From positions 10,618-74,617 of the forward strand of contig JAPLXC010000002.1 of assembly GCA_026396275.1 (NCBI GenBank): DNA of 64,000 nucleotides. Direction: 5' to 3'. Position 1 is the stretch's first letter. Each line of letters opens with the position of its first letter. Both the position numbers and the translations under genes were made by a program. This DNA comes from Candidatus Moraniibacteriota bacterium. GTDB taxonomy: Bacteria; Patescibacteriota; Minisyncoccia; Moranbacterales; JAPLXC01. Shown piece after piece: positions 5,973-63,901 of the stretch. Below the pieces are notes generated by a model that was not told the DNA's origin, did not search any database, and saw only the letters and a program-made list of their open reading frames with translations.

Positions 5973-6098
5973 ATTTTTTAGTTATTGGTTATTAGTTAAA
6001 AGCGGTTGTTTTGGTCTAAAGTTTAAGGTTATTGGACAATTTTGATCAGCAGACCATGATTAATTACTAAACCAGAAGCTAAAACTGACAACTAATGA

Positions 6099-6601: not shown

Positions 6602-7354
6602 TTATAAATTATCAAAGATTTCTTGAACATCGTCTTGGTTATCAAGCGCTTCCAAAAGTTTTTCATAGTCCAGCTTTGTATCCTGATCTAAAGAAATTTT
6701 CTGAAGCGGGGCAAATACAAGACCGGCGTTTTCAATTGATACTTTATGCTTTTCTAAATGTTCTTTTACTTTCTGTAACTCTTCTGATTTCGTAAAAACC
6801 GTTAAAGTTCCGCCGGAATAAATTATGTCTTCTGCGCCTGCTTCAATGGCTTTCAATTCCAGCTCATATGGGTCTTCATCAGCTCCTACTGGAATATTAA
6901 TATTTCCCACTTGCTTAAAAAGATAACTTACTGAACCAGCGGGGACTAATTTGCCTCCGGCTTTAGTTAAAATATTTTTTAACTCTCCGAGTGTCCGATT
7001 TTTATTATCCGTCGCGGTTTTAATGAGCATTGCCACCTGCCCGGAACCACCCGCCTGCTGTACGGGCAGGTAGGCCTCATAAATTACTTCTTCCACTGTT
7101 TCGCCTTTAAGCTCGCCGGTTCCTCGCTTGATAGCCCGCTCAATATTTTCCTTCGGCATGTTAACACTTTTGGCTTGGTCAATGGCTAACTTTAATTTCC
7201 AGTTTGTTTCCGGATTGCTCCCGCCTTCCCGAGAAGCAATGGAAATTGCCCGTCCGAATTTGGTAAAAACATTCGCTCGCTTGGCATCCGTTATCGCCTT
7301 TTTATGTTTTATTCCCGCCCAATGGGAGTGACCTGACATATGATCATGAAGCAT
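6602..7354 (-). CDS. yebC: YebC/PmpR family transcriptional regulator
   Basis: 250 aa. MSGHSHWAGIKHKKAITDAKRANVFTKFGRAI is the conserved YebC N-terminus. Confidence 0.9.
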   Translation of the reverse strand: MLHDHMSGHSHWAGIKHKKAITDAKRANVFTKFGRAISIASREGGSNPETNWKLKLAIDQAKSVNMPKENIERAIKRGTGELKGETVEEVIYEAYLPVQQAGGSGQVAMLIKTATDNKNRTLGELKNILTKAGGKLVPAGSVSYLFKQVGNINIPVGADEDPYELELKAIEAGAEDIIYSGGTLTVFTKSEELQKVKEHLEKHKVSIENAGLVFAPLQKISLDQDTKLDYEKLLEALDNQDDVQEIFDNL

Positions 7355-7420
7355 AAAACATATAACATGCGGCAGGCCTGATTTCTTAATTTGTTACATG
7401 TCTCATGTTGTATGTTATAT
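7342..7420. repeat. Inverted repeat of the CAYRTAACA/ATGTAACAT family between yebC and the LTD-protein gene
   Basis: atgaagcataaaacatataacatg ... catgtctcatgttgtatgttatatg: the two arms are near reverse complements. Same motif family as 11785-11815, 18038-18118, 24368-24435 and 60975-61020. Confidence 0.45.
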
Positions 7421-7544
7421 GATACAATGATAGCATTTTAAAGGCCTAATTTCAAGAAAAAGTCGCCTCTCCTTTTTGTTTTTAATACTGTTAACTTTTG
7501 CTGCATATACAACGAAAGTTAACAGACTAATGACAAAGGAATGA

Positions 7545-11479: not shown

Positions 11480-11851
11480 AAGCTGATGTAGATTTGTTCC
11501 TTAATTACCCGTTATTTGACCCCATATTAGAGAGTATACTACGATTTGACAAACTTTGAAAGTCGTGCTAAACTGGTCTGTCATCTGTAAATATGCGCTT
11601 TTGGGTGCAATTTCCGATGACTAGCAGTAAGCTGTAGACAATTGGTGGTGACTATCTTTTGCCATCAATTCAGGGAACTTTCTTGTCCAGATATGGGTGC
11701 AGGGGTTTCGGCTCTTGTTCTCCTCGACATTGTTCTCTCCCTGGGGATCACATTTCCAGGATTGTCTACAGATTAGTGATATATTCATGAAGCATGAAAC
11801 ATGCAACATGAAACAAATTAAAAAAGTTTTTTAACAAAGGAGGGAAGAAAG

Positions 11852-12019
11852 ATGGAAACGAGGTATTTAATTCAAATAATGATAACTTTCTTGGTTGGAG
11901 CGACTGTTGTTGGCTTTTCGGCTATCACAGGGATTTGGCATCCAAATAACCCTTGGGTTTTTGCTAGCGCGATGGCAATTGGGGGATTTGTTGGTTTTAT
12001 TGTTATTCCTATTTTCTGA
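11852..12019 (+). CDS. Small (55 aa) two-TM membrane protein, hypothetical
   Basis: ATG preceded by aaggagggaagaaag (RBS). Translates to METRYLIQIMITFLVGATVVGFSAITGIWHPNNPWVFASAMAIGGFVGFIVIPIF. Absent from the track because it is under 60 aa. Confidence 0.35.
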   Translation: METRYLIQIMITFLVGATVVGFSAITGIWHPNNPWVFASAMAIGGFVGFIVIPIF

Positions 12020-12863: not shown

Positions 12864-12902
12864 TAAAGCAAAACTTTTGATTTTTGCATTTTGATTTTTT
12901 AT

Positions 12903-15900
12903 TTATTCTTCCGTTACTCTCTCCACTTCCTCCAATGTCGTCTCGCCTTCCAAAACCTTAAGGATCCCGTCCTGCTGCATAGTGAGCATTCCGTTTTCAA
13001 TGGCTTTGTCGCGGATGTGGGTGGAAAGTTCGTTAGCATAAATCATTTCCTGGACGGCTTTGTCAATTACTAAGACCTCACTCACAGTGGTACGGCCTTT
13101 GTAGCCGATGCCGTTGCATTTGGCGCACCCTTTGGGCTTGTAAATGTAACTTCCGGGGGGAATTTTTACTCCCGCTTTGGGTGAAATTGACTTAATAATA
13201 TTTTTTATCTTTTCTTTTTCTTCCGCGGTGGGCTTAATTTTTTCCCGGCACTCACAAAGTTTTCGCACCAGCCGCTGCGCCATAAATCCATTGGCGGCGG
13301 TGGCTAAATCATCGGTTCTCACTCCCATATTGAGAAGGCGGGGAATAGCGCCGGGCGCGTCATTGGTATGCAAAGTTGATAAAACCAAATGTCCAGTGAG
13401 CGCCGATTGAACAGCGATGCCGGCTGTTTCCTCATCGCGGATTTCACCAATCATCATAATGTCGGGGTTTTGGCGAAGAAGCGAGCGCAGGGCCGTGGGA
13501 AAAGTGTATCCTTCTTTGTCACTAACCTGTGTTTGTAAAATCCCCGTCAGCTGGTATTCAATCGGATCCTCCACGGTGATTACTTTAACTTCGGGTTTAT
13601 TGAGCACCCGCAGCAAACTGTAAAGCGTCGTTGTTTTTCCGGATCCGGTGGGACCGGTATTGAGAAAAAATCCATTGGGCTTTTTGATTTCATGAAGGAT
13701 TTTATCCAGATTTTGTTTTCTGATCCCCAGTTTATCAACATCCAGCGCCACCGCTCCCCGATTGAGAAGGCGCATCACGACTGTTTCTCCGTAGCCGCCT
13801 AAAATTATGGAAACGCGCACGTCCACTTTTATTTCAGTTATATTTTTAAACGGCCGGTCTATGGCTATGGAAAAACGGCTGTCTTTTACTCCTTGGCGAA
13901 GTTCAGCTTTAAGCCCGGAAAGTATTTTTATCTCTCCTAAAAATGTCGGGTATTCATTGAGGGGAATCCGCCCGATGGTTTGCAAAATCCCGTCAATGCG
14001 AAGGCGCACCAAGACCTCTTTCTCTTCCGGCTCGATATGAATATCGCCGGCGGAAAGCAAAAGCGCCGCCGCGATAACGTAGCGCAGAGCGTCTTTTTGA
14101 TTAGCGCCTTTCAAAAACTCGGCGAATTTTTCGAAGGAGGATGTATTTTTAGAAACCTTTTCCAAATCTTCTTGAGGTATTTCGATCGCCCGGGAAAGCG
14201 ACTGCTCCATTAATTTTTCATAAATCTCTTCAAGGAATTCGGTTTGCCCCGTCACCCGCCATACCTCTTCCAGTGAAGTGATTCCCTCAATGGCTTTCAT
14301 GATCCCATCTTGCGCCATAGTTATCATGCCTTCTTCCAAAGCGGCTTGAGTTATTTCTCCTTCGCTGGCCATGTTTAAAATAAGTTTTTCGATTGATTCG
14401 CTCATGGTGAGAACCTCGAAAACTCCGATTCTCCCCCGATATCCCAGATTATGGCAACGGGGGCAACCTTTTGGCCGATATAATTGAAGGATATCTTTGG
14501 GGATTTCCATTTTTGACTTCGGGGAGATTATCGCCAGAATCTTTTTGATTGAGTTGGCTGTTTCCTTGGCGGGCTGATAGACCTCCCGGCAGTGAGGACA
14601 AATTTTTCGCACCAGGCGCTGGGCGATAAGAGCGCTCACCGCTGGAGCAATAAGGTTGGGTTTGACTCCCAATTCTATCAGGCGCGGAACAGCGCCAGCC
14701 GCGCTGTTGGTGTGAATCGTGGAAAGCACCAGATGCCCAGTTAGTGCGGCGTTAAGGGCAATGTCGGCCGTTTCTTCGTCGCGGATCTCGCCAACCAGAA
14801 TCACGTCCGGATCCTGTCGCACTATCGCCCGCAATCCCTTTTCGAAAGTGTACCCCCGGCTCTTGGACACCTGCGTCTGGGAGATTCCTTTTATTTCATA
14901 TTCCACCGGGTCTTCAATAGTTATTATTTTCACTCCCGGTACATTGATCCGGTTAAGAACGGCGTAAAGCGTTGTGGTTTTCCCGGATCCGGTGGGGCCG
15001 GTGTTGAGAATCATCCCATGGGGCTTTTCTGTCTGTTTTTGCACTTGCTCATAAGCTAGTCCCCGCAATCCCAGTTCCTCAACTCTCAAGAGGACATCGG
15101 CTTGATTGAGAAGACGCATCACGATGCTCTCTCCGCGGTTTCCGGGAATGATGCTGACGCGGATATTGATTAGCCCGTTTTCCAGATTGACATTGAAGTG
15201 CCCGTCCTGGGCAATATCACGGATGTTGAGTTTCATTCCTCCCATCATTTTCACCCGCGATATGATGAAGCGGTAAATATCCAGAGGCAGATATCCGACA
15301 TCCTGCAGAACTCCGTCCAGGCGATAGCGCAGACGCACTTCTTCTTCCTGCGGCTCAAAATGAATGTCGCTGGCTTTCATCTTCACCGCCCCGGCCATAA
15401 TGGTAGTGATAATCTGGGTGGTGGGAATTTCCCGGATCCTTTTTTTGAGTTCCAGCAGATCCTTGAATTCCCTTTCAAATTCTTCAAGGTCTTTTCCGCT
15501 AAGAGACAGGCGGAGAGCGTCCAGATTTTCCAAAAGCGGTGTCTCTTTATACTTATTCAGGGCTTTGCTAAGCGAAGAAAGCGAAACGACATAAAGGCGG
15601 ATGTTCCAACCATTTTCTTGCTGAAGTTTTTTGACGTAATCCAGTGTTTCACGGCTTCCGGGATTGGTCAGCGCCAGCCGGATGTTTTTCCCAGCTTTCT
15701 GAAAGACGGCCACTTGAAAACGGCGCGCCTCCTCTTCGGGAAGAGAGCGAAGCTCATCGCCGCTCAAAGGAAAGAGATTGAGATCAACGTAAAAAAGATT
15801 GTGTTTTTTGGCCAGCGCCGCGGCTTGTTCTTCTTCCGATTCCTTACGCATTCGCCGCAGGACTTGAGACGCCCTGATATCTTTTTCTTTATCAGCCGGC

Positions 15901-17385: not shown

Positions 17386-17757
17386 GTGAAAAGGTTAACT
17401 TTAGTTCTTTTAGTTATTTTCATTGTCGCAGTATTGTTGGTTCCCACGGCATCATTTGCCTGGGACCGGGGACATCGCGGCGGACATGGTGGCGGTTATT
17501 ACGGTGGCGGTCATTACTATCATGGTGGTGGTCATTATGGTGGTAATTTCTGGGGCGGGGTTGCTGTAGGAATTATCGGAGGAGCTGTTGCAGGTGCACT
17601 TACTTCTCCGTACTATTCTCCGTACTATTACACTCCAGCACCAGTCTACACCACGTCTTCGGATTGCCGGAGGATAATGGTAGTGGACCGGTATGGTTAC
17701 CTGGTTCGTGAATATGAAGAGTGTTACCCTAACCCTGTTTACATTCGAAGATGGTAA
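17386..17757 (+). CDS. Secreted Gly/Tyr/His-rich low-complexity protein
   Basis: 123 aa. Signal peptide MKRLTLVLLVIFIVAVLLVPTASFA, then GHRGGHGGGYYGGGHYYHGGGHYGG repeats. Confidence 0.5.
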   Translation: MKRLTLVLLVIFIVAVLLVPTASFAWDRGHRGGHGGGYYGGGHYYHGGGHYGGNFWGGVAVGIIGGAVAGALTSPYYSPYYYTPAPVYTTSSDCRRIMVVDRYGYLVREYEECYPNPVYIRRW

Positions 17758-17838: not shown

Positions 17839-18318
17839 ATGAAATCTTATATCACCAACAGCTCCGCGGAAACCAAAAAACTGGGCGAATTACTCGCCCG
17901 CGAGCTTTACGGCGGGGAAATAATTTGTCTTTCCGGTGAACTGGGTTCCGGCAAGACCACATTTGCGCAAGGGCTTCTCAAGGGACTAAAAATAAAAGGA
18001 CCGCACACGAGCCCTACGTTTGTGATAATAAAACAATATCACGTAGCACGTAACACTAAACACATAACAAATAAGAAATCAGAGTTGTTACGTGATATGT
18101 GCTATGTGTTATGTGACATCTACCATATCGACGCCTATCGTGTTACTGCTAAAGATATCTTAAATCTTGGTTGGGGGGAAATTATAAAAGATAAAAGTAA
18201 TATAATAATCGTAGAATGGGCCGACCGGATAAGAAAAATAATTCCCAAAGGGGCCACTCGGATTAAGTTTGAGTGGGTAAGTGAAAATAAAAGAAAAATT
18301 ACCCTCATGTCATCCTGA
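17839..18318 (+). CDS. tsaE: tRNA t6A37 threonylcarbamoyladenosine biosynthesis protein TsaE, carrying an in-frame palindromic insertion
   Basis: GELGSGKTTFAQGL, SPTFVIIKQY and YHIDAYR motifs are present. Between SPTF..Y and YHxDxYR there are about 27 aa (HVARNTKHITNKKSELLRDMCYVLCDI) where E. coli YjeE has about 7. Confidence 0.75.
   Translation: MKSYITNSSAETKKLGELLARELYGGEIICLSGELGSGKTTFAQGLLKGLKIKGPHTSPTFVIIKQYHVARNTKHITNKKSELLRDMCYVLCDIYHIDAYRVTAKDILNLGWGEIIKDKSNIIIVEWADRIRKIIPKGATRIKFEWVSENKRKITLMSS
18038..18118. repeat. CAYRTAACA-family imperfect palindrome inserted in frame within tsaE
   Basis: atcacgtagcacgtaacactaaacacataacaaataag aaatcagag ttgttacgtgatatgtgctatgtgttatgtgacat. The arms pair cacgtaac/gttacgtg and cacataaca/tgttatgtg. 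Confidence 0.6.
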
Positions 18319-19368: not shown

Positions 19369-22071
19369 ATGACAGATAATAAGCCAAAAAAACTCGTCCT
19401 CATCGACGGTAACGCTATTATTCACCGGGCTTATCATGCCCTGCCGCCGCTTACGACCAAAAAAGGGGAACTGGTCAACGCCGTGTACGGCTTTACTAGT
19501 GTCCTTCTTAAGGTTATCAGTGAACTCAAGCCGGATTATATTCTGGCCACTTTTGACTTGAAAGGACCGACTTTCCGCCATGAAGAATACAAAGAATACA
19601 AGGCCACTCGTCCCAAGGCCCCAGATGAACTGATCAATCAAATTGAAAGGGTAAAGGAGGTAGTCCGCGCTTTTAATATTCCTGTTTATGAAAAAAAAGG
19701 GTTCGAAGCCGATGACGTTATTGGCACACTGGCAAGACAAGCCGAGGAGAGCAAAGAGGATGGAGGAATTGAAAATATTATTGTTACCGGCGATTTGGAT
19801 ACCCTGCAATTGGTAGATCTAAAAACAAAAGTATACGCCCTGCGACGGGGAATGAGCGACACGACTGTTTACGATGATCAGGCGGTGAAAGAGCGTTATG
19901 GACTGGCGCCGAATCAGATGATTGATTACAAGGGCCTGCGCGGTGATCCTTCCGACAACATTCCCGGAGTGAAGGGCATCGGCGAAAAAACAGCCATTGA
20001 GCTTTTGCAAAAATATCATTCAATTGAAAATATTTACGCGAATCTGTCTGAAATCAGAGACACCCTTCGCGAAAAACTAGAGCGGGACAAAGCCCAGGCC
20101 ATACTTTCTAAACGGCTGGCAACTATTCATAAAGACGTTCCGGTGGAATTTAACCTGAAGATTTCTGTCACCCAAGAATTTGACCGCGGAAAAATTTTAA
20201 ACCTTTTTCAGGAACTTAATTTTTTTAGCTTGATCAAAAGGATACCCGGCACGAAACAGCCAATGGAATTTGAATCCGCGAGTGCTGAAAGCGGAGGAGT
20301 TAAGGACTTTAAATTTGAATACATAAGCCCGGACAAACTGGACGAATTCGTAAAAAAATTAAAAGAGCAAAAAGAAATTGCACTGTATCTTAGAACCACC
20401 GGGGATAAATACTATAACAGCGACTTGAAAGGAATTGCCTTTGCCTATGAAGCTGGGCGGGCGGGATACGTAGACAATATTAAAAATCAAATATCAAAAA
20501 TAAAAAATGTTATTGAAGATGAGAATATAGAAAAAATTGGATATGACTTAAAATATGTCATTGAGGTTTTAAAAAAATATGACATTAAACTTAAGGGCGA
20601 ATTATCTGACATTATGCTGGCGGCTTACGTTCTTGCTCCCGGAGGAAAAATTGAATTTAAAAATCTGGTTCTGGAGGAATTAGGGGAAGAAATAACGGCT
20701 CGCGGCAAAAAGGGCCAGTTGGGACTAGAAATAGATTCAAAGGAAGAAATAGCCGAGAAAATCTGCCAGGCTGCCGATTACATTTTCAAGCTCAAGCAAA
20801 TTTACGAGCCAAAACTGGAAAAAATAAGCACTGCCCAGAGAAACGAAAACAATCTCAAAAACATCTTCCAAAATATTGAAATGCCGCTCGTTGAAATTTT
20901 AGCCCACATGGAAATGAACGGCGTAAAGTTAAACACCATAATTTTTAAAGGCATATCCAAAAACATCGAGCAGAAAATCGAAAATCTGCAAAAAAGCATT
21001 TATAAGCTGGCCGAGGGTGAATTTAATATCAACTCTCCCCAACAGTTGTCTGAAGTATTATTTTCCAAATTAAAGCTTCCGGCCGAAGATATCAAAAAAA
21101 CCAAAACTGGTTACTCTACTGCTTCCGCGGAACTGGAAAAGCTCCGCGCCAAGCACAAAATAATCGAAAAAATTGAAGAATACCGGGAACTTTTTAAGCT
21201 GAAAACTACTTATCTCGACACTCTGCCGGACCTCGTTGATAAAAATTCCCGCCTTCATACCACTTTTAACCAAGCGGTAACGGCGACTGGCCGTCTTTCA
21301 TCATCAGATCCTAATCTGCAAAATATTCCCATCCGAACAGATTTGGGACAGATTCTTCGCACCGCGTTTGTCACTGAACATGGCTTCCGATTGATAAGCG
21401 GCGATTATTCCCAAATCGATCTTCGCGTGGTCGCTCATGTCAGCGGCGATAAAAAGCTGATTGAGACATTTGCCCGGGGAGAAGATATCCATCGCGCGAC
21501 AGCTTCCGAAATTTTTAAAACTTCTCCTTCCCAGGTAACCGAAACGATGCGCCGCAGCGCTAAAGCCCTTAATTTCGGCATTATTTATGGGATGAGCATC
21601 TTTGGATTTTCGGAGGCAGCGGGAATTGATCGAGATGAGGCCAAAAAGTTCATTGATGATTATATGGAAAAATTCCCCGGCGTGGCTGCCTACATAAGAG
21701 AGACGAAAGAATTTGCCAAGAAAAATGAATATGTGGAAACGCAGCTGGGACGCCGGCGCTATATCCCGGAAATTAACTCTCCCAATTTTCAAGTGGCACA
21801 GGCCGCCGAACGTATGGCTATTAATATGCCGATTCAGGGGCTCGCCGCCGACATTATGAAGCTGGCAATGATCAATATATACAAGGAATACCAAAACGAT
21901 CCGGGGGTAAAAATGGTTCTCCAGATTCACGATGAAATACTGCTGGAAGTCAAGGAAGAAATAGCCGAAAAGGTAGCCGAAAGATTAAAAGAGATTATGG
22001 AAAATGTTTATCAGTTGAAAGTTCCTTTAGTTGCTGAAGTGAAAATAGGAGATAATTGGGGAGAAATCTGA
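19369..22071 (+). CDS. polA: DNA polymerase I
   Basis: 900 aa. N-terminal 5'-3' exonuclease (LIDGNAIIHRAYHALPP). Polymerase motifs RLHTTFNQAVTATGRLSSSDPNLQNIP, DYSQIDLRVVAH and QIHDEILLEV. Confidence 0.92.
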   Translation: MTDNKPKKLVLIDGNAIIHRAYHALPPLTTKKGELVNAVYGFTSVLLKVISELKPDYILATFDLKGPTFRHEEYKEYKATRPKAPDELINQIERVKEVVRAFNIPVYEKKGFEADDVIGTLARQAEESKEDGGIENIIVTGDLDTLQLVDLKTKVYALRRGMSDTTVYDDQAVKERYGLAPNQMIDYKGLRGDPSDNIPGVKGIGEKTAIELLQKYHSIENIYANLSEIRDTLREKLERDKAQAILSKRLATIHKDVPVEFNLKISVTQEFDRGKILNLFQELNFFSLIKRIPGTKQPMEFESASAESGGVKDFKFEYISPDKLDEFVKKLKEQKEIALYLRTTGDKYYNSDLKGIAFAYEAGRAGYVDNIKNQISKIKNVIEDENIEKIGYDLKYVIEVLKKYDIKLKGELSDIMLAAYVLAPGGKIEFKNLVLEELGEEITARGKKGQLGLEIDSKEEIAEKICQAADYIFKLKQIYEPKLEKISTAQRNENNLKNIFQNIEMPLVEILAHMEMNGVKLNTIIFKGISKNIEQKIENLQKSIYKLAEGEFNINSPQQLSEVLFSKLKLPAEDIKKTKTGYSTASAELEKLRAKHKIIEKIEEYRELFKLKTTYLDTLPDLVDKNSRLHTTFNQAVTATGRLSSSDPNLQNIPIRTDLGQILRTAFVTEHGFRLISGDYSQIDLRVVAHVSGDKKLIETFARGEDIHRATASEIFKTSPSQVTETMRRSAKALNFGIIYGMSIFGFSEAAGIDRDEAKKFIDDYMEKFPGVAAYIRETKEFAKKNEYVETQLGRRRYIPEINSPNFQVAQAAERMAINMPIQGLAADIMKLAMINIYKEYQNDPGVKMVLQIHDEILLEVKEEIAEKVAERLKEIMENVYQLKVPLVAEVKIGDNWGEI

Positions 22072-22079
22072 TGCAAATT

Positions 22080-22153
22080 ATGATTCGAATTATATTCAAA
22101 TTAAGATACGAATTTGGATTGTAATTCGAATTTAATTCGTATATAAATTCGCA
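22080..22153. repeat. TACGAAT/ATTCGTA heptamer cluster between polA and fpg
   Basis: tgattcgaattatattcaaattaagatacgaatttggattgtaattcgaatttaattcgtatataaattcgcat. Confidence 0.5.
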
Positions 22154-22154
22154 T

Positions 22155-23024
22155 ATGCCGGAGCTGCCTGAAGTCCAAACAATAATTACTGATCTTAATA
22201 AGAAAATTAAAGGCGATATGATCGTCGGCTTTTGGACTGACTGGCCGAAGGCAATTAAAAATAAATCGGTTAAGAATTTTACAAGAGAAATTAAAGGAAG
22301 AAAAATTTTAGGGGCGCGAAGAATCGGGAAAAATATCTTTATTGATCTTTCCGGCGGAAAGACAATTTACATTCACCTAAAAATGACAGGGCACCTACTG
22401 GTTAAAAATCAAAAATCAAAAATCAAAAATCAAAAATATTTTAGGGAAAAAGTAAACCTGTATATTCACCACGTTTGGAAACTCAAAGCCCAAAACGCAA
22501 AACTTAAAACTTTGGAATTCTCGGATCTTAGAAAATTCGGGAAAATTTTATTAGTTGATACCGGAAAACTTAGGGAAATTAAAGAAATCAAAGAACTGGG
22601 AGTTGATATTATAAGTCCAGGCTTTACTCAAAAATTTTTTAATGCTTTACTGGATAAAAAACAGAACAAGAAAATCCGTGATATTTTAATGGATCAGCGT
22701 TTAATTTCTGGGATTGGAAATATTTACGCTTCAGAAATTCTCTATGAGGCCGGGATGCTGCCGGTAATATTAGCAAAAAATATAAACTCTCAAGAAAGAA
22801 CAAAGCTCTATAATTCCATTAAAGAAGTGCTTGAAAAAGCTATAAAACTAAGGGGAACTTCTGATTCTGATTATCGAGACACTTCCGGGGCGCCGGGAAG
22901 TTTCCAAAAAGTTCTCCGGGTGTACCGGTGCGAAGGACAGCCCTGCCGGAAATGTGGTACAATGGTAAAACGGATAAGAATGGGGCAAAGAAGTGCCTTT
23001 TACTGTCCCCGGTGTCAACATTAA
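22155..23024 (+). CDS. mutM: Formamidopyrimidine-DNA glycosylase (Fpg/Nei family)
   Basis: 289 aa. N-terminal MPELPEVQTI (catalytic Pro2/Glu3). C-terminal zinc finger CRKCGTMVKR...CPRCQ. Confidence 0.85.
   Translation: MPELPEVQTIITDLNKKIKGDMIVGFWTDWPKAIKNKSVKNFTREIKGRKILGARRIGKNIFIDLSGGKTIYIHLKMTGHLLVKNQKSKIKNQKYFREKVNLYIHHVWKLKAQNAKLKTLEFSDLRKFGKILLVDTGKLREIKEIKELGVDIISPGFTQKFFNALLDKKQNKKIRDILMDQRLISGIGNIYASEILYEAGMLPVILAKNINSQERTKLYNSIKEVLEKAIKLRGTSDSDYRDTSGAPGSFQKVLRVYRCEGQPCRKCGTMVKRIRMGQRSAFYCPRCQH
22404..22438 (+). repeat. Heptanucleotide microsatellite (AAAAATC)x4 plus a partial unit inside the fpg CDS
   Basis: aaaaatc aaaaatc aaaaatc aaaaatc aaaaata, encoding KNQKSKIKNQK. The unit length is not a multiple of three. 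Confidence 0.8.
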
Positions 23025-23033
23025 CTGGTTACT

Positions 23034-23138
23034 AATTACGAATTATTTACTAATATACAAATATACGAATATTTTATCCTCTCTTTCTTTTTAGAAAGAA
23101 AATTAAGAGATTAAATTCGTATATTCGTATAAAATTCG
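23034..23138. repeat. TACGAAT/ATTCGTA heptamer cluster with a central palindrome, 3' of fpg
   Basis: ttacgaatt..actaatatacaaatatacgaatatt - ctctttctttttagaaagaaaa - attcgtatattcgtataaaattcg. Inverted arms around the ttctttttagaaagaa palindrome. Confidence 0.55.
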
Positions 23139-23258: not shown

Positions 23259-24368
23259 ATGAGTAAAAAGCAAAAAATAGTTATCGCTCTCATCGCCATT
23301 CTGGTCGCTGGATTAATTACTTACGCCACAGTGGGGCGGAAAATGATTCGTTCCAGCAAGGTAAAACAAATTAAAGTAGATCAGCAAGAAGCGGACGCCG
23401 GCTCTGCCAATCAGGGTCCGGTTAGCCCTATTTCCGGACTTTCCTGCGACAATTGGAATCGCCGGCCGATCGCCGTAATGCAGCCAGCTGATGTTCCCGC
23501 CCGCCCGGCTGCCGGCTTATCCGATGCGGACATGGTCATTGAAATGCCGGTTATTACAGCGACAATAACCCGCCTTATGGGAGTTTACGTCTGCAACGAC
23601 CCGGATGACGTTGGTTCAATGAGAAGCGCCCGGCACGATTTTGTCCATCTGGCTAAAGGACTGGATGCTATTTTTGTCCATTGGGGAAGATCGGATTTGG
23701 AGTGGTTTAAGGAACAACTAAACAATGGGGTTATTGATCAGATTAATTGCAACGATGACGCCGGCAAACCAGGTCTTCGGCTCGGATTCTGCTATCGAAA
23801 AGAAGCTAATGGAACGATGCGGGGAGTGGATACTGGGTACGCAAAATTTTCAAAGCTTATTGAAGGGGTAAAATATTACCAATACCGCCTGGAGAATAAA
23901 TTTTCCGGTTATCCTCACCAGGCTGAGCCCCCGATAGATCAGAGGCCAAGCGGCGGGCACTTGAGAGTGGCCTTTGCCGGTCCTTTCGCCGTTGAATATG
24001 ACTATGATAGAAGCGCAAACAGTTATTTGAGGACCTGGGGGAATGTTCTTGATACTGATCGTAATAATGGAAAAAGAATAGTTCCTAAAAATGTGGCGGT
24101 TTTATTTGCCCAATCATCCCAGATTGAAGGCCAATATAATAATGTCCAGCTGGGTGATCCTTGGATGGACACTTCCGACTCCGGAGACGCTTATTATTAT
24201 TTCAACGGAAAAGAATACCGGGGAACTTGGAAAAAAGACAAGGGAAACATTGCCAGTAAATTATTCTTCTATGACACTTCTGGCCAGGAAATAAAATTTG
24301 TTCCCGGCCAAATTTGGGTGGAAATTTTAGAGCCGGGGCAGCGACTGAAATGGGAACCAGTTCAGTAA
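23259..24368 (+). CDS. DUF3048-domain lipoprotein-like protein (YerB-like)
   Basis: 369 aa. N-terminal TM/signal. IAVMQPADVPARPAAGLSDADMVIEMPV resembles the DUF3048 N-terminal motif. Noticeably more GC-rich than its neighbours. Confidence 0.55.
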   Translation: MSKKQKIVIALIAILVAGLITYATVGRKMIRSSKVKQIKVDQQEADAGSANQGPVSPISGLSCDNWNRRPIAVMQPADVPARPAAGLSDADMVIEMPVITATITRLMGVYVCNDPDDVGSMRSARHDFVHLAKGLDAIFVHWGRSDLEWFKEQLNNGVIDQINCNDDAGKPGLRLGFCYRKEANGTMRGVDTGYAKFSKLIEGVKYYQYRLENKFSGYPHQAEPPIDQRPSGGHLRVAFAGPFAVEYDYDRSANSYLRTWGNVLDTDRNNGKRIVPKNVAVLFAQSSQIEGQYNNVQLGDPWMDTSDSGDAYYYFNGKEYRGTWKKDKGNIASKLFFYDTSGQEIKFVPGQIWVEILEPGQRLKWEPVQ

Positions 24369-24435
24369 TCATATAACACGCAACATATAACATGTAACAC
24401 AATAATTGGTTTCATGTTTTGGTTTCATATTTCAT
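24368..24435. repeat. CAYRTAACA/ATGTAACAT-family repeat between the DUF3048 gene and holA
   Basis: catataacacgcaacatataacatgtaacac ... gtttcatgttttggtttcatatttcatg (inverted arms). Confidence 0.45.
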
Positions 24436-25399
24436 GATAATTTTTCTTTACGGCGAGGATGCCTTTCGTTCCCGCCAAAAACTAGATGAGTTAAAAAACA
24501 GGTTTCTTACAAAGTACGGAGCCCAGGCCAGCCTTAGCGTGGTTGATGCTGAAGAGAACAGGGAAGTTAGATTGGCCGACCTGATTAATTCCCCAGGGCT
24601 TTTTTCCTCTATTTATTTAGTTATAATAAAAAATCTTATTTCTGAACTGGGAAAAGATCAGCAGGTAGAGATACTCAATCTTCTGCGGTCAAAAAAATCC
24701 CTTCTCGGGAGCAAAGACATTGTTTTAATTTTCTGGGAAAAAGAAATTCCCAATGCCAAAAGTGTTTTATTTCAGTTTCTGAAAAAAAATGCGCAGACGC
24801 AAAAGTTCGCTAAATTAGAAGGTGCTTCTCTTGCCCGCTGGATGCTTGATCAGCTGAAAGAACTGAATCCGGCGCTGGAAATCTCCCGAAAAGTCCTGGA
24901 AAAAATCGCCGCTTATACCGGAAACGACCTTTTCCAAATCAGCAGTGAATTCAAAAAACTAGCGAGCTTCAGAGAAAAAGGAAAAATAACTGAGGAAGAC
25001 GTGGATTTTCTAGTAACCTCAAAGATTAATATTAACATATTTGATACTATAGAGGCGGCTTCAGAGGGAAATAAAAAAAAGGCCTTGAAGCTCCTTCACC
25101 AACAGCTTCAGAGCGGAGAGGATCCTTTTTATGTCTTTTCTATGTATATTTATCAGTTTAGGAATCTGCTGAAAATCGGTGAGCTGCATTGGCAAGGAGT
25201 GGCAGAAAAACACAAACTGGCTAAAATTACTAAACTCCACCCTTTTGTCGTCCAAAAAACCCTGCCCCAGCTCAAAAATTTTACTCTCCAGAAACTTAAA
25301 AATATTTATCAAAAACTTCAAAAAACAGACGAGGAATTAAAGACAGGTAGAGCTGAAGATATCCAAGTAGAACTGGACAGGTTAATAATGGAGATTTGA
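24419..25399 (+). CDS. holA: DNA polymerase III delta subunit (HolA-like)
   Basis: 326 aa. MIIFLYGEDAFRSRQKLDELK is typical of the HolA N-terminus. The real start is probably the internal ATG near 24434. Confidence 0.65.
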   Translation: MVSYFMIIFLYGEDAFRSRQKLDELKNRFLTKYGAQASLSVVDAEENREVRLADLINSPGLFSSIYLVIIKNLISELGKDQQVEILNLLRSKKSLLGSKDIVLIFWEKEIPNAKSVLFQFLKKNAQTQKFAKLEGASLARWMLDQLKELNPALEISRKVLEKIAAYTGNDLFQISSEFKKLASFREKGKITEEDVDFLVTSKININIFDTIEAASEGNKKKALKLLHQQLQSGEDPFYVFSMYIYQFRNLLKIGELHWQGVAEKHKLAKITKLHPFVVQKTLPQLKNFTLQKLKNIYQKLQKTDEELKTGRAEDIQVELDRLIMEI

Positions 25400-42675: not shown

Positions 42676-43083
42676 CTATAATTTCAAGTATTTTACTAGC
42701 AGCAAAATACCGCCGAGGACGATGAAGCTGTCGGCCAGGTTGAACGCCGGCCAAAACTTAAGGTCAATGAAGTCGATAACGCAGCCAAACATTATGCGAT
42801 CAATGATATTAGAAGTTGCTCCGGCCAGAACAGGAATTATGAATAATGAATTATGAATCACAGATTTTTTGCTAATAAAGGCAAATATTAAAATAGTAAT
42901 TGCTAAAAGCCAAAAAAGCCAAAATAAAATCTCGGGTACTTTTATTCCCCAGGCAATATTTATGTTGCAAATATAAAATCCGCCCCCTTGGCGGATTAGA
43001 TACTTAGAAAACTGGTCGAGAGGGACTAGAGCAAAAAACAACAGCGCAAAAAGTATTTTTTTGGTTTTTATTTCAGGGTCCAT
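42676..43083 (-). CDS. lspA: Lipoprotein signal peptidase II
   Basis: [41 protein letters not shown] is the LspA C-terminal motif. Start re-set to MDPEIK, which ends the overlap with the upstream gene. Confidence 0.75.
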
Positions 43084-43088
43084 AATGC

Positions 43089-43442
43089 CTACTTGCACCG
43101 GATGCATGTCTTGGCGGCGGGATAAGCCCGCAGTCGCTCGATGTTTATCTCTTGACCGCAATTGCCGCAGGTTCCGTAAGTTCCCTCTTCCATTCGTGCC
43201 AGAGCGTCGCCTACATCTTTCAGGCGCTTTTCAAGAGTGCTCTCCAGGGCTAAATTATCAGTGTATTCCTCAACTTCTGACGCGTTTTCATCCACATCGG
43301 TGCCAAGATCGCTAAATTTGGTTTTATAGTCCCCAGGAACTTCGGTAGGGGCGGCAAAGTTTTTCAGCTCGTTTTCAAGACGATTTTTTTCTTTGAGAAG
43401 CTTTTCTTTCAGTTCCGTTTGAATTTGAGGGTCAATGGCCAT
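43089..43442 (-). CDS. DksA/TraR-family C4 zinc-finger protein
   Basis: 117 aa. Coiled-coil N-terminus, then [26 protein letters not shown]. Confidence 0.75.
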
Positions 43443-50136: not shown

Positions 50137-50177
50137 TTATTCGTATATTCGTACCTAATTCGTAATTCGTAGAGAAA
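50137..50177. repeat. ATTCGTA heptamer x4 direct cluster immediately 3' of gyrA
   Basis: attcgtat attcgtac cta attcgta attcgtag ag, ending at the gyrA stop. Resembles the post-ruvB copy (attcgtagttcgtagag). Confidence 0.55.
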
Positions 50178-60013: not shown

Positions 60014-60982
60014 ATGAAGAAAATAAACTATCTGGAAATACTTAAAAAGTCCTGGAAAATTACCTGGAGCAACAGGTATCTCTGGTGGTTTGGATTTTTT
60101 TTGGCTCTGGGAAAAGGCGGAGTGAATTTTAATCTTCCTTTAAACTGGAACAATCAGGAAAGCAAAAAGGAAGAGGAATTTATCCGTGTTTTTAACGATT
60201 TTATGGCTGGATACTGGGAATGGCTGCTGGCGGGCCTGCTTTTTATGATAGTTCTAATGCTCGTGATAGTTGTCTTAAAAATCATCAGCCGGGCGGGACT
60301 AATTAAGGGAGCGGCGGAAATTGAAAAAGGGAAAGCATTTAGTTTTAAAGAGGGATTTCTTCAAGGAAAAAAATATTTTTGGAAGATATTCCTTACTGGT
60401 TTTCTGATTGCCTTCTTTCTGATCGGGATAATAATCACTCTTTTTTCTCCAGTGGCTTTTCTTATCTATCTTAAGTCCTATATCTTAGCTGTGATTTTAG
60501 GATTTCTGGCAGTTCTTCTGATTATCGCGCTGGCAATTTTGGTCTCTTTTATCAAGGAATACGCATATATTTACTTAGTCCTTTCCAATCTTAGCGTTAG
60601 GTCTTCACTGGAAAACGCCTACCAGCTTTTTCGCCGCAATATCTGGCCGAGTGTTATTATGATGCTGATTTTCATCCCTATCGGACTCGCGATAGGTATT
60701 GCTGCGATGCTTCTTCTTCTGACGCTGGTCTTGGTTTTCCTGATAATCGGACTTGCGGCTTATCTAATTCTGGCTAAAATTGGCGTTATTTTGACCGTTA
60801 TTCTGGGGTCTTTGGTTTTTCTGGCTCTCGTTTTGCTCCTGCAGTCGATCTTTGAGACCTTCCGCCAGGTCGCCTGGGTGCTGTTTTTCAAAGAAATTGC
60901 TTCAGTAAAAGTTGAGGAAGAAGTAACTGAAAAAGAAACAGTAAAAACCGCAGAAAAGGTCTTGGACGCGGGAGAAGCGTGA
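60014..60982 (+). CDS. Polytopic membrane protein, hypothetical
   Basis: 322 aa, about 7-8 TM helices, acidic C-terminal tail. Confidence 0.45.
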   Translation: MKKINYLEILKKSWKITWSNRYLWWFGFFLALGKGGVNFNLPLNWNNQESKKEEEFIRVFNDFMAGYWEWLLAGLLFMIVLMLVIVVLKIISRAGLIKGAAEIEKGKAFSFKEGFLQGKKYFWKIFLTGFLIAFFLIGIIITLFSPVAFLIYLKSYILAVILGFLAVLLIIALAILVSFIKEYAYIYLVLSNLSVRSSLENAYQLFRRNIWPSVIMMLIFIPIGLAIGIAAMLLLLTLVLVFLIIGLAAYLILAKIGVILTVILGSLVFLALVLLLQSIFETFRQVAWVLFFKEIASVKVEEEVTEKETVKTAEKVLDAGEA

Positions 60983-61101
60983 GATCATGGAACATATAGC
61001 ATGAAACATGTAACATTAACAGGGAAAGATTTTACAAAACAGGAATTGGTAGATTAGTAAAGAAATTCATATTAAGAGCGATGAAAAGTTTAAGTAAATC
61101 G

Positions 61102-62887: not shown

Positions 62888-63901
62888 TTATAATTCAATA
62901 GGAATTTCGCTAATCCCGTAATCTTTTAATTTTTGCTGAACATCTCCGGAAAGTTGGCTAACAAATTCCATAAATCCGCCTATCTTAGAAAGAGAAACGA
63001 TATTGGCCACGGGGTCATCCTGTTCTGGTTTCACTTCTTGTTCCAATTGAGGCGCTAGAAGCGCTAGTTGCAGGCCGCGTTTGTGAATTTCAATAAGATT
63101 GGCCGGGACTTCAACCTCCTCGAGTTGTTCCAGGACTTCTGATTCCTTTTTAACCAAGGAGTCAAGATAGGAAAAGTTGCCAGATGAAATAGCAGAAGTA
63201 ACTTTGGAAGAAAACGCACTAGATGCTTCATTTAGATCGTCTGGTGATTTTATTTCCTCCGGAGAGTTGTTAACGAGAATATAAGAAAGTGCCGTCAGGT
63301 ATTCAAGAGCGTCTTGACGCTCCTTTTCCAAACGCGCCGATTCAGAAAGCTTTGAATAGTTTTGTTTTTTTATTTTAATTGTGCTTTTATCAATTTCCGG
63401 AAGATCTAACTCGTTTGTATTTTGCTGAAGAGCATTATTAATGATAGCGTCAATATTTTCAAGAGTAATTTCCTGATTTTCGGGGGTAAGATTATTCACT
63501 GAAGCAGCGATCTGCTGGGAAAGTTCCTCGGTCAAATTTTTTTCCTCATTAGTAGCAGTTATGTTGCCACTTTCTTCATTGCTGTTGCTTTCCAATTGCT
63601 TACTGCTTACCGCTTGTTGCTTGCCGCTTATCACTACTTTATCCCCCGGCGCTGGTTTCAAGGGATCATAGCCGCTTTTTACTTCCGTACCGTCGGAATA
63701 GCCATCACCGTCAGTGTCGCGATTAAAAGGATCAGTTCCATAGGATTTTTCTTCTTCATCACTTAATCCATCCTGATCAGAGTCCTGAAAAATGTTTTTA
63801 GCGCTTCCCGAATTTTCCTGAGCCACGGTAAAAAACGCGAAACTGGCAACGCACAACCCCGCAAATATCAGAAGCGTTATTTTGGTGTGATTTAATTTCA
63901 C
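62888..63901 (-). CDS. Secreted protein with thrombospondin type-3-like calcium-binding Asp repeats
   Basis: 337 aa. GTG start, signal peptide, DSDQDGLSDEEEKSYGTDPFNRDTDGDGYSDGTEV (DxDxDGxxD repeats). Confidence 0.5.
   Translation of the reverse strand: MKLNHTKITLLIFAGLCVASFAFFTVAQENSGSAKNIFQDSDQDGLSDEEEKSYGTDPFNRDTDGDGYSDGTEVKSGYDPLKPAPGDKVVISGKQQAVSSKQLESNSNEESGNITATNEEKNLTEELSQQIAASVNNLTPENQEITLENIDAIINNALQQNTNELDLPEIDKSTIKIKKQNYSKLSESARLEKERQDALEYLTALSYILVNNSPEEIKSPDDLNEASSAFSSKVTSAISSGNFSYLDSLVKKESEVLEQLEEVEVPANLIEIHKRGLQLALLAPQLEQEVKPEQDDPVANIVSLSKIGGFMEFVSQLSGDVQQKLKDYGISEIPIEL

What the first reader, a model, noticed from the sequence alone, without database searches (positions are those of the whole stretch)
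18038..18118. A CAYRTAACA-family palindromic repeat inserted in frame within tsaE
TsaE normally has about 7 residues between SPTF..Y and the YHxDxYR motif. Here about 27 residues (HVARNTKHITNKKSELLRDMCYVLCDI) are encoded by an imperfect palindrome built from cacgtaac/gttacgtg and cacataaca/tgttatgtg arms. Related motif clusters (catgaaacatgtaacat and variants) occur intergenically at 7342-7420, 11785-11815, 24368-24435 and 60975-61020, mostly as inverted pairs. This is a second family of hairpin-forming repeats, and one copy sits inside an essential tRNA-modification gene.
Basis: partly seen in the sequence, partly recalled or inferred. Interest (0 to 1): 0.7.

Follow-up and report, generated by a model that had tools for sequence, protein, structure and literature searches.

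The report
Seven-base-repeat palindrome translated inside tsaE
An 84-base hairpin-forming repeat, built from tandem 7-base units, is translated as a floppy 20-residue surface loop of the tRNA-modification protein TsaE; it is real and has relatives between genes, but it is an old feature shared by most related bacteria, not a fresh insertion.

Summary
Window 18036-18119 is an imperfect palindrome lying in frame in tsaE (17839-18318). It adds about 20 residues between Switch I (SPTF) and Switch II (HIDAYR).

Each arm is a tandem array of 4-5 heptanucleotide units: (CAYRNAA)n, a loop, then (TTNYRTG)n.

Of the 120 nearest TsaE homologues, 111 carry an expanded loop at the same codon. Insert-less genes are scattered among insert-bearing relatives, and some are visible partial deletions. 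Some orthologues hold heptamer arrays with other units and no hairpin, or unrelated GC-rich palindromes.

Period 7 is the only enriched tandem period in this clade. In-frame heptamer arrays also sit at a fixed site in fpg, with a different unit in each genome. Intergenic copies run up to the start codons of holA, yebC and a DHH-family gene.

Best reading: an ancient, fast-evolving heptanucleotide-repeat palindrome, like cyanobacterial STRRs, tolerated at a disordered beta-hairpin tip. The peptide is probably a passenger. Both kinds are known (heptamer simple repeats; Rickettsia-type in-frame palindromes), so interest is moderate.

The parts
17839..18318 (+). tsaE gene (159 aa), the host of the element
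   Evidence: ORF list. Pfam TsaE E=2.9e-31. Foldseek hits to YdiB and TmTsaE.
18010..18021 (+). Codons for the Switch I motif SPTF, the upstream anchor of the expanded beta-hairpin
   Evidence: Sequence. Motif definition from PMC6614819.
18036..18119 (+). The whole in-frame palindromic element. Its termini are ATATCAC...GTGACAT, and it encodes residues about 67-94.
   Evidence: Inverted repeat I1. RNA fold z=-4.4. nhmmer E=3.5e-10 with a profile from other genomes. Alignment A3.
18040..18074 (+). Left arm: five heptamers, CACGTAG CACGTAA CACTAAA CACATAA CAAATAA
   Evidence: Heptamer scan. TRF period 7, 4.3 copies. The unit CACTAAA avoids the in-frame TAA that a CACGTAA unit would give in that codon phase (read directly from the sequence).
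18075..18087 (+). Loop. The string AATAAGAAATCAG spans the end of the left arm and the loop, and it is shared with the loop of the copy upstream of yebC.
   Evidence: Alignment A3.
18088..18115 (+). Right arm: four heptamers, TTACGTG ATATGTG CTATGTG TTATGTG, the inverted version of the left-arm units
18124..18141 (+). Codons for the Switch II motif HIDAYR, the downstream anchor
7345..7421 (-). Family copy in the 5' leader of yebC (gene 6602-7351, minus strand). It is a full hairpin, and on the sense strand its 3' arm ends at the yebC ATG.
24367..24436 (+). Family copy filling the spacer from the stop codon of the DUF3048 gene to the ATG of holA (24434)
11786..11815 (+). Single array CATGAAA x4.3, with no inverted partner, upstream of a small ORF that starts at 11852
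   Evidence: (E=0.077).
60986..61021 (+). Single array CATGTAA x5.3, starting 3 nt after the stop codon of gene 60014-60982
   Evidence: (E=0.033).

Best explanation
The segment is a translated copy of a dispersed palindromic repeat of about 75-90 bp. Each arm is a tandem array of 4-5 heptanucleotide units, with consensus 5'-TATCA(YRNAACA)n - loop - (TGTTNYR)n TGATA-3'. It belongs to the class of over-represented heptanucleotide simple-sequence repeats, best known as cyanobacterial STRRs, here arranged as an inverted pair.

Shown:
- It sits between Switch I and Switch II of TsaE. There it lengthens a beta-hairpin whose tip is predicted to be disordered.
- An expanded loop at the same codon is present in more than 90% of the nearest TsaE homologues.
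- The same sequence family occupies non-coding sites in this genome and in related genomes.
- Period-7 arrays are the only enriched tandem period in the clade.
- Orthologous sites (the tsaE loop, an fpg loop, the spacer before holA) keep an array while the unit sequence changes between genomes.

Inferred:
- The element entered or arose at this permissive loop in an ancestor of this Moranbacteria-like group of Patescibacteria.
- It has since been remodelled at the DNA level. Likely routes are polymerase slippage on 7-nt units, templating between arms and between copies, partial deletions, and nested insertion of other palindromes.
- Only in-frame, stop-free versions survive in tsaE, so the peptide is a tolerated passenger rather than a selected function.
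- The intergenic relatives end on start codons and probably act as RNA hairpins that gate or couple translation initiation. No such role is indicated for the tsaE copy.
For: - Anatomy.
- Family link: the nhmmer profile from other genomes; the in-register alignment of 11 copies at 64% mean identity, with AAC and GTT invariant every 7 nt; and the near-identical loop string shared by the tsaE and yebC-upstream copies.
- Age of the insert: 111 of 120 homologues have a span of at least 36 aa, against 24 in E. coli and B. subtilis. Syntenic loci L161 and L162, and also L081 and L083, carry the same CAYRNAA/TTNYRTG hairpin in tsaE.
- Losses: insert-less genes are nested among insert-bearing ones. P0108, P0085 (=L082) and P0061 look like partial deletions.
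- Fast turnover: insert similarity barely tracks core identity (r=0.10).
- A nucleotide-level process:
  - 17 of 42 expanded tsaE loops show strong period 7, and no other period passes the threshold.
  - The close clade has 43 period-7 arrays in 275 kb, against 0 for periods 6 and 8-12.
  - Perfect two-copy 7-mer duplications number 133 against 32 expected. Perfect three-copy runs number 16 for period 7, against 7, 3 and 0 for periods 4, 5 and 6 and none for periods 8-12.
  - The fpg site holds 4-5-unit arrays with a different unit in the window and in each of six relatives (L001, L081, L082, L089, L091, L096).
- Tolerance: in the AlphaFold2 model (mean pLDDT 87) strands 64-73 and 88-98 form the hairpin, and the tip 75-89 has pLDDT below 50. 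The switch motifs lie at the ATP site on the TsaD interface (PMC6614819), so the hairpin tip should point away from it. That last step is an inference from the fold topology.
- Literature: heptanucleotide repeats are the most abundant long simple repeats in most prokaryotic genomes, and polymerase slippage has been proposed as the cause (Mrazek 2007, as cited in PMC4679880 and PMC4692102). STRRs are 7-bp repeats that form hairpins between genes (PMC2670836) and occur inside the RNase P RNA gene (Vioque 1997, title seen).
Against: - A 7-nt unit cannot be gained or lost singly in an essential ORF without a frameshift. Simple slippage therefore does not explain how coding arrays arise or turn over, and insert lengths do not step by 7 aa.
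- The unit CAYRNAA is conserved across sites and across genomes whose proteins are only about 60% identical. That fits selection on the motif, or a master copy, better than neutral repeat drift.
- No gain or loss event was caught between near-identical genomes, because the closest relative has 65-68% TsaE identity. Ancestral insertion is therefore not proven against repeated insertion at a hot spot. Unrelated GC-rich palindromes at the same codon in L089, L092, L099, L105 and L128 show that independent insertions do happen there.
- No copy-specific compensatory covariation was found. Shuffles give 73% pairing against 74% observed, so the data neither require nor exclude a functional hairpin.
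Confidence: 0.6

Rival explanations
1. A mobile palindromic element of MITE or Rickettsia-RPE type transposed into tsaE. This could have happened in this lineage or repeatedly in many lineages, and it survives because it landed in frame in a surface loop.
For: - It is a dispersed family with conserved termini TATCAY...RTGATA at five or more sites in this window, and at different genes in other genomes.
- The tsaE and yebC-upstream copies share a near-identical loop string, which suggests recent copying within this genome.
- Unrelated palindromes occupy the same codon in other lineages, and a GC-rich hairpin is nested inside the L086 insert.
- RPEs provide a precedent for in-frame palindromic insertions (PMC10969869).
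Against: - The same family sits at the same codon in the window, L081, L083, L161 and L162, and an expanded loop is present in 111 of 120 homologues. A lineage-private jump is therefore excluded.
- No target-site duplication can be separated from the palindrome itself.
- No transposase was found in the window (tblastn with the L161 RAYT-like protein found nothing).
- Arrays with quite different units occupy orthologous sites. A single mobile sequence does not explain that.
Confidence: 0.2
2. The hairpin is a selected cis-acting nucleic-acid element inside tsaE. Candidates include an mRNA structure that paces translation or controls decay, an internal initiation or coupling signal like the intergenic copies, or a protein-binding array of AACAY motifs.
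For: - The window's hairpin is strong as RNA (z=-4.4), and 11 of 20 long inserts fold with z<=-2.
- Intergenic relatives are placed precisely, with the 3' arm ending on the ATG of holA, yebC and the DHH gene in several genomes. In L161 both arms are replaced by another unit while the hairpin is kept.
- The AAC/GTT cores are invariant, while the variable unit positions are mostly unpaired. That looks like motif conservation.
Against: - 9 of 20 long tsaE inserts have no significant hairpin, and several have direct arrays only.
- There is no copy-specific covariation.
- The two strands fold about equally well.
- There is no Rfam match and no terminator-like T tract after the stem.
- Close relatives do without the insert.
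Confidence: 0.12
3. The extra 20 residues are a protein-level adaptation of TsaE in Patescibacteria, for example a new contact surface. The nucleotide palindrome would then be incidental.
For: The loop expansion is widespread and old. The outer parts of the insert are modelled as extensions of the two beta-strands.
Against: - The peptide sequence is hypervariable, with unrelated 'flavours' among close relatives.
- The tip has pLDDT below 50.
- The regularity is a 7-nt period, which has no meaning at the protein level.
- Arm peptides are simply reverse-complement translations of one another.
Confidence: 0.04

Closest known systems
Cyanobacterial STRRs (short tandemly repeated repetitive sequences) and, more generally, over-represented heptanucleotide long simple-sequence repeats (Mrazek 2007; Xanthomonas GGGAATC; Beggiatoaceae TAACTGA)
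   Same: - 7-nt units, typically about 4 copies, with many loci per genome.
- Often arranged as inverted pairs that can form hairpins between co-oriented genes or just upstream of start codons.
- The same intergenic position is kept between relatives while sequence and length vary.
- They occur inside a functional gene's tolerant helix (RNase P RNA).
- Function is unknown, and polymerase slippage has been proposed as the cause (PMC2670836, PMC4692102, PMC4679880).
   Different: - The host is a Patescibacteria (CPR) lineage.
- The units are different: CAYRNAA, AAATCAA and others.
- The array pair is translated in frame in the core of a small essential enzyme, and it is conserved in position across a large clade. 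In Beggiatoaceae, by contrast, in-ORF repeats lie mostly at protein termini.
Rickettsia palindromic elements (RPEs)
   Same: Dispersed palindromic repeats found both between genes and in frame inside housekeeping genes. They are translated, and they sit where the fold tolerates them (PMC10969869).
   Different: - RPEs are about 150 bp, encode a conserved peptide per family, and are not built from tandem heptamers.
- RPE insertions differ between species at a given gene. Here the site is occupied in nearly all relatives, and the peptide is hypervariable.
REP/REPIN elements mobilised by RAYT transposases
   Same: Short dispersed palindromes. A RAYT-like gene with an adjacent GTAG-headed palindrome exists in a related genome (L161).
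   Different: The tsaE family has no GTAG or CGTC head, its arms are tandem repeats rather than single palindromes, and no RAYT gene lies in the window.

Membership tests
Heptanucleotide LSSR / STRR-like repeats | Tandem head-to-tail copies of a 7-nt unit, at least 3 copies | tested here: met
   TRF finds period 7 with 4.3 and 3.6 copies in the two arms. Own scans agree.
Heptanucleotide LSSR / STRR-like repeats | Genome-wide excess of period 7 over other periods and over chance | tested here: met
   - Window: 9 arrays at lag 7 against 0 in shuffles, and 0 at lags 6 and 8-12.
- Close clade: 43 arrays against 0 for those other lags.
- Perfect two-copy duplications: 133 observed against 32 expected.
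- TRF finds 11 period-7 arrays with at least 3 copies.
Heptanucleotide LSSR / STRR-like repeats | Inverted array pairs forming hairpins in spacers between genes, with position kept and sequence varying between relatives | tested here: met
   The spacer before holA in the window, L081, L086, L161 and L162, and the fpg site.
Heptanucleotide LSSR / STRR-like repeats | Cyanobacterial host and the canonical STRR unit sequences | tested here: not met
   - The nearest homologues and loci are Patescibacteria or Moraniibacteriota MAGs.
- The units are CAYRNAA and others, not the three Calothrix heptanucleotides (I recall them as CCCCAGT, TTGGTCA and CAACAGT; PMC4692102, only reports that three such units exist).
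- It therefore works like an STRR but is not an STRR in the strict sense.
RPE-like in-frame palindromic mobile elements / MITEs | Dispersed copies that share sequence, including non-coding copies | tested here: met
RPE-like in-frame palindromic mobile elements / MITEs | In-frame, stop-free insertion at a structurally permissive site of a housekeeping protein | tested here: met
RPE-like in-frame palindromic mobile elements / MITEs | Evidence of transposition: filled and empty sites among close relatives with defined ends, a target-site duplication, and a cognate transposase | tested here: inconclusive
   - Empty sites exist (L093, L094, L097, P0063, P0103), but they are nested among filled ones, and some are partial deletions.
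- A target-site duplication cannot be told apart from the palindrome.
- No transposase was found in the window.
- The closest available genome is only 65-68% identical in TsaE.
REP/REPIN-RAYT | Palindrome of 20-40 nt with a conserved GTAG or CGTC head, and a RAYT gene in the genome | tested here: not met
   No GTAGGGG...CCCCTAC element occurs in the window. The arms are tandem arrays. No RAYT homologue lies in the 64 kb, though the whole genome could not be tested.
Curated structured RNA families (Rfam) | A match at or above a family's gathering score | tested here: not met
   Only a chance-level match was found (mir-9413, 22 bits against a gathering score of 100, E=0.28).
Translational bypass ('byp') or intron-like untranslated inserts | Insert need not be in frame or free of stop codons | tested here: not met
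   All 111 expanded homologues were retrieved as single continuous ORFs spanning the insert. In the window, one unit is altered to avoid an in-frame TAA. Both points fit translation of the insert.

The most novel reading that the evidence does not exclude
Patescibacteria, and perhaps other Terrabacteria with STRR-like repeats, may have an active, sequence-independent process that writes and rewrites 7-nt tandem arrays at hairpin-prone sites. Under this reading, stop-to-start heptamer hairpins are a lineage-wide device for gating translation initiation. The tsaE and fpg loops would then be self-perpetuating 'nests' where this process operates inside essential coding sequence without breaking the frame.
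Probability: 0.12. Interest if true: 0.75.

Novelty: new variant of a known kind. Interest (0 to 1): 0.5.

Why it matters
It shows that heptanucleotide repeats are abundant in Patescibacteria. Their excess in bacteria has been noted since 2007, and as cyanobacterial STRRs since 1990, but it remains unexplained.

In this clade the repeats occupy fixed positions inside conserved genes such as tsaE and fpg. The unit sequence changes from genome to genome while the reading frame is kept. That pattern is hard to explain by one-unit slippage, so these sites are natural test cases for how such repeats arise.

There is also a practical point. Hypervariable low-complexity loops in CPR proteins can be by-products of nucleotide-level repeats. 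They should not be read as protein adaptations or used as alignment signal.

Tried and rejected
- **Strand asymmetry.** I compared sense and antisense fold energies at 12 hairpins to detect RNA-only selection. There was no consistent difference.
- **Consensus folding.** RNAalifold on the 11-copy alignment gave only an 8-pair helix, in a register shifted by one heptamer. Counting pairs on the full symmetric helix showed a palindromic consensus but no copy-specific covariation.
- **Other copies of the GC-rich palindromes.** I searched for further copies of the GC-rich palindromes found in other lineages' tsaE loops. None appeared in the loci held.
- **RAYT/REP link.** L161 has a RAYT-like gene and a GTAG palindrome, but the window has neither.
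- **Known RNA families and terminators.** There was no Rfam family and no terminator-like site at the hairpin.
- **Insert lengths stepping by 7 aa (21 nt).** This was not seen.
- **Genome-specific unit 'dialect'.** I tested whether the tsaE copy shares a unit with the other copies of the same genome. This is not clear-cut: CAYRNAA is shared across genomes, while other sites use other units.
- **Literature.** Searches for heptamer repeats or in-frame palindromes in Patescibacteria or CPR found nothing. Elhai 2008 and Vioque 1997 are not held in the library.

Full report
**1. What is at the coordinates**

The ORF 17839-18318 (+) encodes a 159-aa TsaE. Pfam PF02367 matches at E=2.9e-31. Its AlphaFold2 model (mean pLDDT 87) matches B. 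subtilis YdiB, T. maritima TsaE in the TsaB2D2E2 complex, and H. influenzae HI0065.

From SPTF (Switch I) to YHIDAYR (Switch II) there are 44 residues, against 24 in E. coli YjeE and B. subtilis YdiB. The motif definitions come from PMC6614819.

The DNA at 18036-18119 is an imperfect palindrome.
- The arms are 35 nt each and 74% complementary.
- As RNA it folds at -28 kcal/mol, z=-4.4, and none of 200 shuffles did as well.
- With DNA parameters the fold is only -12.1 kcal/mol, z=-2.0, because several pairs are G-T.

**2.

Each arm is a tandem array of 7-nt units.
- Left arm: CACGTAG CACGTAA CACTAAA CACATAA CAAATAA.
- Right arm: TTACGTG ATATGTG CTATGTG TTATGTG.
- TRF independently reports period 7 for both arms.

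The intergenic relatives are built the same way.
- 7345-7421 and 24370-24436 are inverted pairs.
- 11786-11815 and 60986-61021 are single arrays.

Period 7 is the only enriched tandem period.
- In the window there are 9 arrays at lag 7 against 0 in shuffles, and none at lags 6 or 8-12.
- In 275 kb of close relatives there are 43 arrays at lag 7, against 0 for those other lags.
- Perfect two-copy 7-mer duplications number 133 against 32 expected.
- Perfect three-copy runs number 16 for period 7, against 7, 3 and 0 for periods 4, 5 and 6 and none for periods 8-12.

In the coding copy, the unit that would put TAA in frame reads CACTAAA instead. This is consistent with selection for an open frame.

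**3. Is it one family with the intergenic copies?**

Yes. A profile built only from three non-coding hairpins of other genomes (upstream of a DHH-family gene in L081, L085 and L086) hits the tsaE insert best in the window (E=3.5e-10). It then hits 24369-24426 (1.3e-5), 7348-7414 (1.4e-3), 60986-61017 (0.033) and 11784-11818 (0.077).

Eleven copies were aligned: tsaE copies from five genomes, plus copies upstream of holA, yebC and the DHH gene.
- They align in register at 64% mean column identity.
- AAC and GTT are invariant every 7 nt.
- The termini are shared: TATCAY...RTGATA.
- The window's tsaE copy and its yebC-upstream copy share the loop string AAT(T)AAGAAATCAG.

**4. Is it a private insertion?**

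No. Of the 120 nearest TsaE homologues (55-68% identity; Patescibacteria and Moranbacteria MAGs), 111 have a span of at least 36 aa at the same place.

The syntenic loci L161 and L162, and also L081 and L083, carry the same CAYRNAA/TTNYRTG hairpin in tsaE.

Insert-less genes (P0054, P0063/P0074, P0103, L093, L094, L097) have insert-bearing nearest neighbours. P0108, P0085 (=L082) and P0061 retain one arm, so they are partial deletions.

Insert similarity hardly follows core identity (r=0.10), so the insert turns over much faster than the protein core.

**5. What other orthologues hold at that codon**

Among 42 loci with an expanded loop, 17 show strong 7-nt periodicity, and no other period passes the threshold.

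The units differ between loci:
- AATTTTC in L084
- AAATTTC in L085
- AATACCA in L086
- ATCCCAA on one side and CTCCATG on the other in L090
- CGTGGAA/GATCCAC in L001
- AAACCCC in a Levyibacteriota genome (L004)
- ATGTCAG in L113

Several of these have no hairpin at all.

Other loci hold unrelated GC-rich palindromes (L089, L092, L099, L105, L128). L086 has one nested inside its heptamer arrays.

So the loop is a permissive hot spot for repeats. The palindrome is one common outcome, not the invariant feature.

**6. The same behaviour elsewhere**

In fpg (22155-23024; Pfam) a 4-5-unit array (AAATCAA) encodes KNQKSKIKNQKY after HLLV. At the same codon, relatives carry arrays with other units:
- AATACCA in L082
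- AAAGCAA in L096
- AAAAGTG in L091
- AAAGCGC in L089
- CAAATCT in L081
- CAAAGTC in L001

The spacer between the DUF3048 gene and holA is filled by a heptamer-arm hairpin. It runs from the stop codon to the holA ATG in the window, L081, L086 and L162 (same family). In L161 both arms are replaced by AAGAAGA/TTCTTCA.

The copies upstream of yebC and the DHH gene also end on the start codon.

The pattern at all these sites is the same: the position is kept and the unit changes.

**7. Structure and selection tests**

- The full symmetric 32-bp helix is 74% paired across the 11 copies, against 21-50% when the partner is slid. Shuffling partners among copies gives 73%. The family consensus is therefore palindromic, but there is no copy-specific covariation.
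- The variable unit positions are mostly unpaired.
- Sense and antisense strands fold about equally well.
- There is no Rfam match and no terminator-like feature at the site.
- In the protein model the insert extends the beta-hairpin (strands 64-73 and 88-98), and the tip 75-89 has pLDDT below 50.
- The two switch motifs lie at the ATP site on the TsaD interface. The tip should therefore project away from it. This step is inferred from the fold topology and was not measured.

**8. Explanation**

The best-supported reading is an old, rapidly remodelled heptanucleotide-repeat palindrome, tolerated at a disordered surface tip, with the peptide as a passenger.

Heptanucleotide repeats are known to be the most abundant long simple repeats in many prokaryotes. 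A polymerase-footprint slippage explanation has been proposed (Mrazek 2007, via PMC4679880 and PMC4692102).

Cyanobacterial STRRs are 7-bp repeats that form hairpins between genes (PMC2670836). They also occur inside the RNase P RNA gene (Vioque 1997, title seen).

Rickettsia RPEs are the precedent for translated palindromic repeats in housekeeping genes (PMC10969869).

Open problems:
- Single-unit slippage would frameshift tsaE.
- The CAYRNAA unit is conserved more than neutral drift predicts.
- No gain or loss event between near-identical genomes could be examined.

The rivals and their weights are: transposition of a MITE/RPE-like element (0.2), a selected cis-element (0.12), and a protein-level adaptation (0.04).

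**9. Verdict**

This is a new variant of known kinds. Its interest lies in the clade-wide, position-fixed, unit-variable heptamer arrays inside essential genes of Patescibacteria, and in the stop-to-start hairpins.

Noticed in passing
window 22399-22441 (also 22484-22512), inside fpg 22155-23024 (+): An in-frame heptamer array AAATCAA x4.9 encodes KNQKSKIKNQKY. Six relatives (L001, L081, L082, L089, L091, L096) carry a 4-5-unit array at the same codon, each with a different unit.
   Followed up: yes
window 24367-24436; L081, L086, L161, L162 upstream of holA: A heptamer-arm hairpin fills the spacer from the stop codon of the DUF3048 gene to the ATG of holA, with no obvious Shine-Dalgarno sequence. 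L161 has the same architecture with an unrelated unit (AAGAAGA/TTCTTCA). Distant Patescibacteria L126 and L142 have CTTGTAG/CTACAAG arms there. This suggests start-codon gating or translational coupling.
   Followed up: partly
window 7345-7421 (-), upstream of yebC; L162 1-60: The 3' arm of the hairpin ends at the yebC start codon. L162 keeps only that arm (19 of 21 nt identical). The window's loop string matches the tsaE loop.
   Followed up: partly
window 20476-20508 (polA), 42834-42858 (gene 42676-43161, minus strand), 63597-63630 (gene 62888-63901, minus strand), 12875-12904, 5978-5998: Further period-7 arrays. Three lie in frame in coding genes, giving the peptides [20 protein letters not shown] and ISGKQQAVSSKQ. 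One lies in a stop-to-start spacer.
   Followed up: no
window 22069-22156, 23048-23131, 50138-50171: A different set of AT-rich repeats built on ATTCGAAT/TATTCGTA lies in the spacers around fpg and elsewhere. Some form inverted pairs.
   Followed up: no
L086 10199-10342; L089 10202-10288; L092; L099; L105; L128 (tsaE loop): Unrelated GC-rich palindromes are translated in the same TsaE loop in other lineages, for example CCCGCCTGCGCCGAGGCTTCGGCGGGCAGG, which encodes PACAEASAGRQ. Similar peptides occur in P0102, P0109 and P0117.
   Followed up: partly
L161 163-708 (-) and 120-160: A RAYT-like tyrosine transposase gene (NCBIfam REP_Tyr_transpos, E=5.6e-16, below the family cut-off) lies next to a GTAG-headed palindrome GTAGGGGTGGTTCATGAACCGCCCCTAC. 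None was found in the window.
   Followed up: partly
L025 (Chthonomonadaceae), L061 and L065 (Chloroflexia), L004, L014, L033, L108, L113 and other loci: Period-7 arrays, some as inverted pairs, also occur in other Patescibacteria classes and in Armatimonadota and Chloroflexota loci. This hints at a wider distribution of STRR-like repeats.
   Followed up: no
window 17386-17757 (+): A small secreted-looking Gly/Tyr/His-rich protein (GHRGGHGGGYYGGGHYYHGGGHYGG) has no Pfam match. It lies between the DHH gene and tsaE.
   Followed up: no
L162 5171-8126 and 10591-13395: In this relative the T2SSE-type ATPase gene (one 1015-aa ORF in the window) is called as four ORFs, and polA as two. These may be pseudogenes, assembly errors, or real gene splits.
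   Followed up: no
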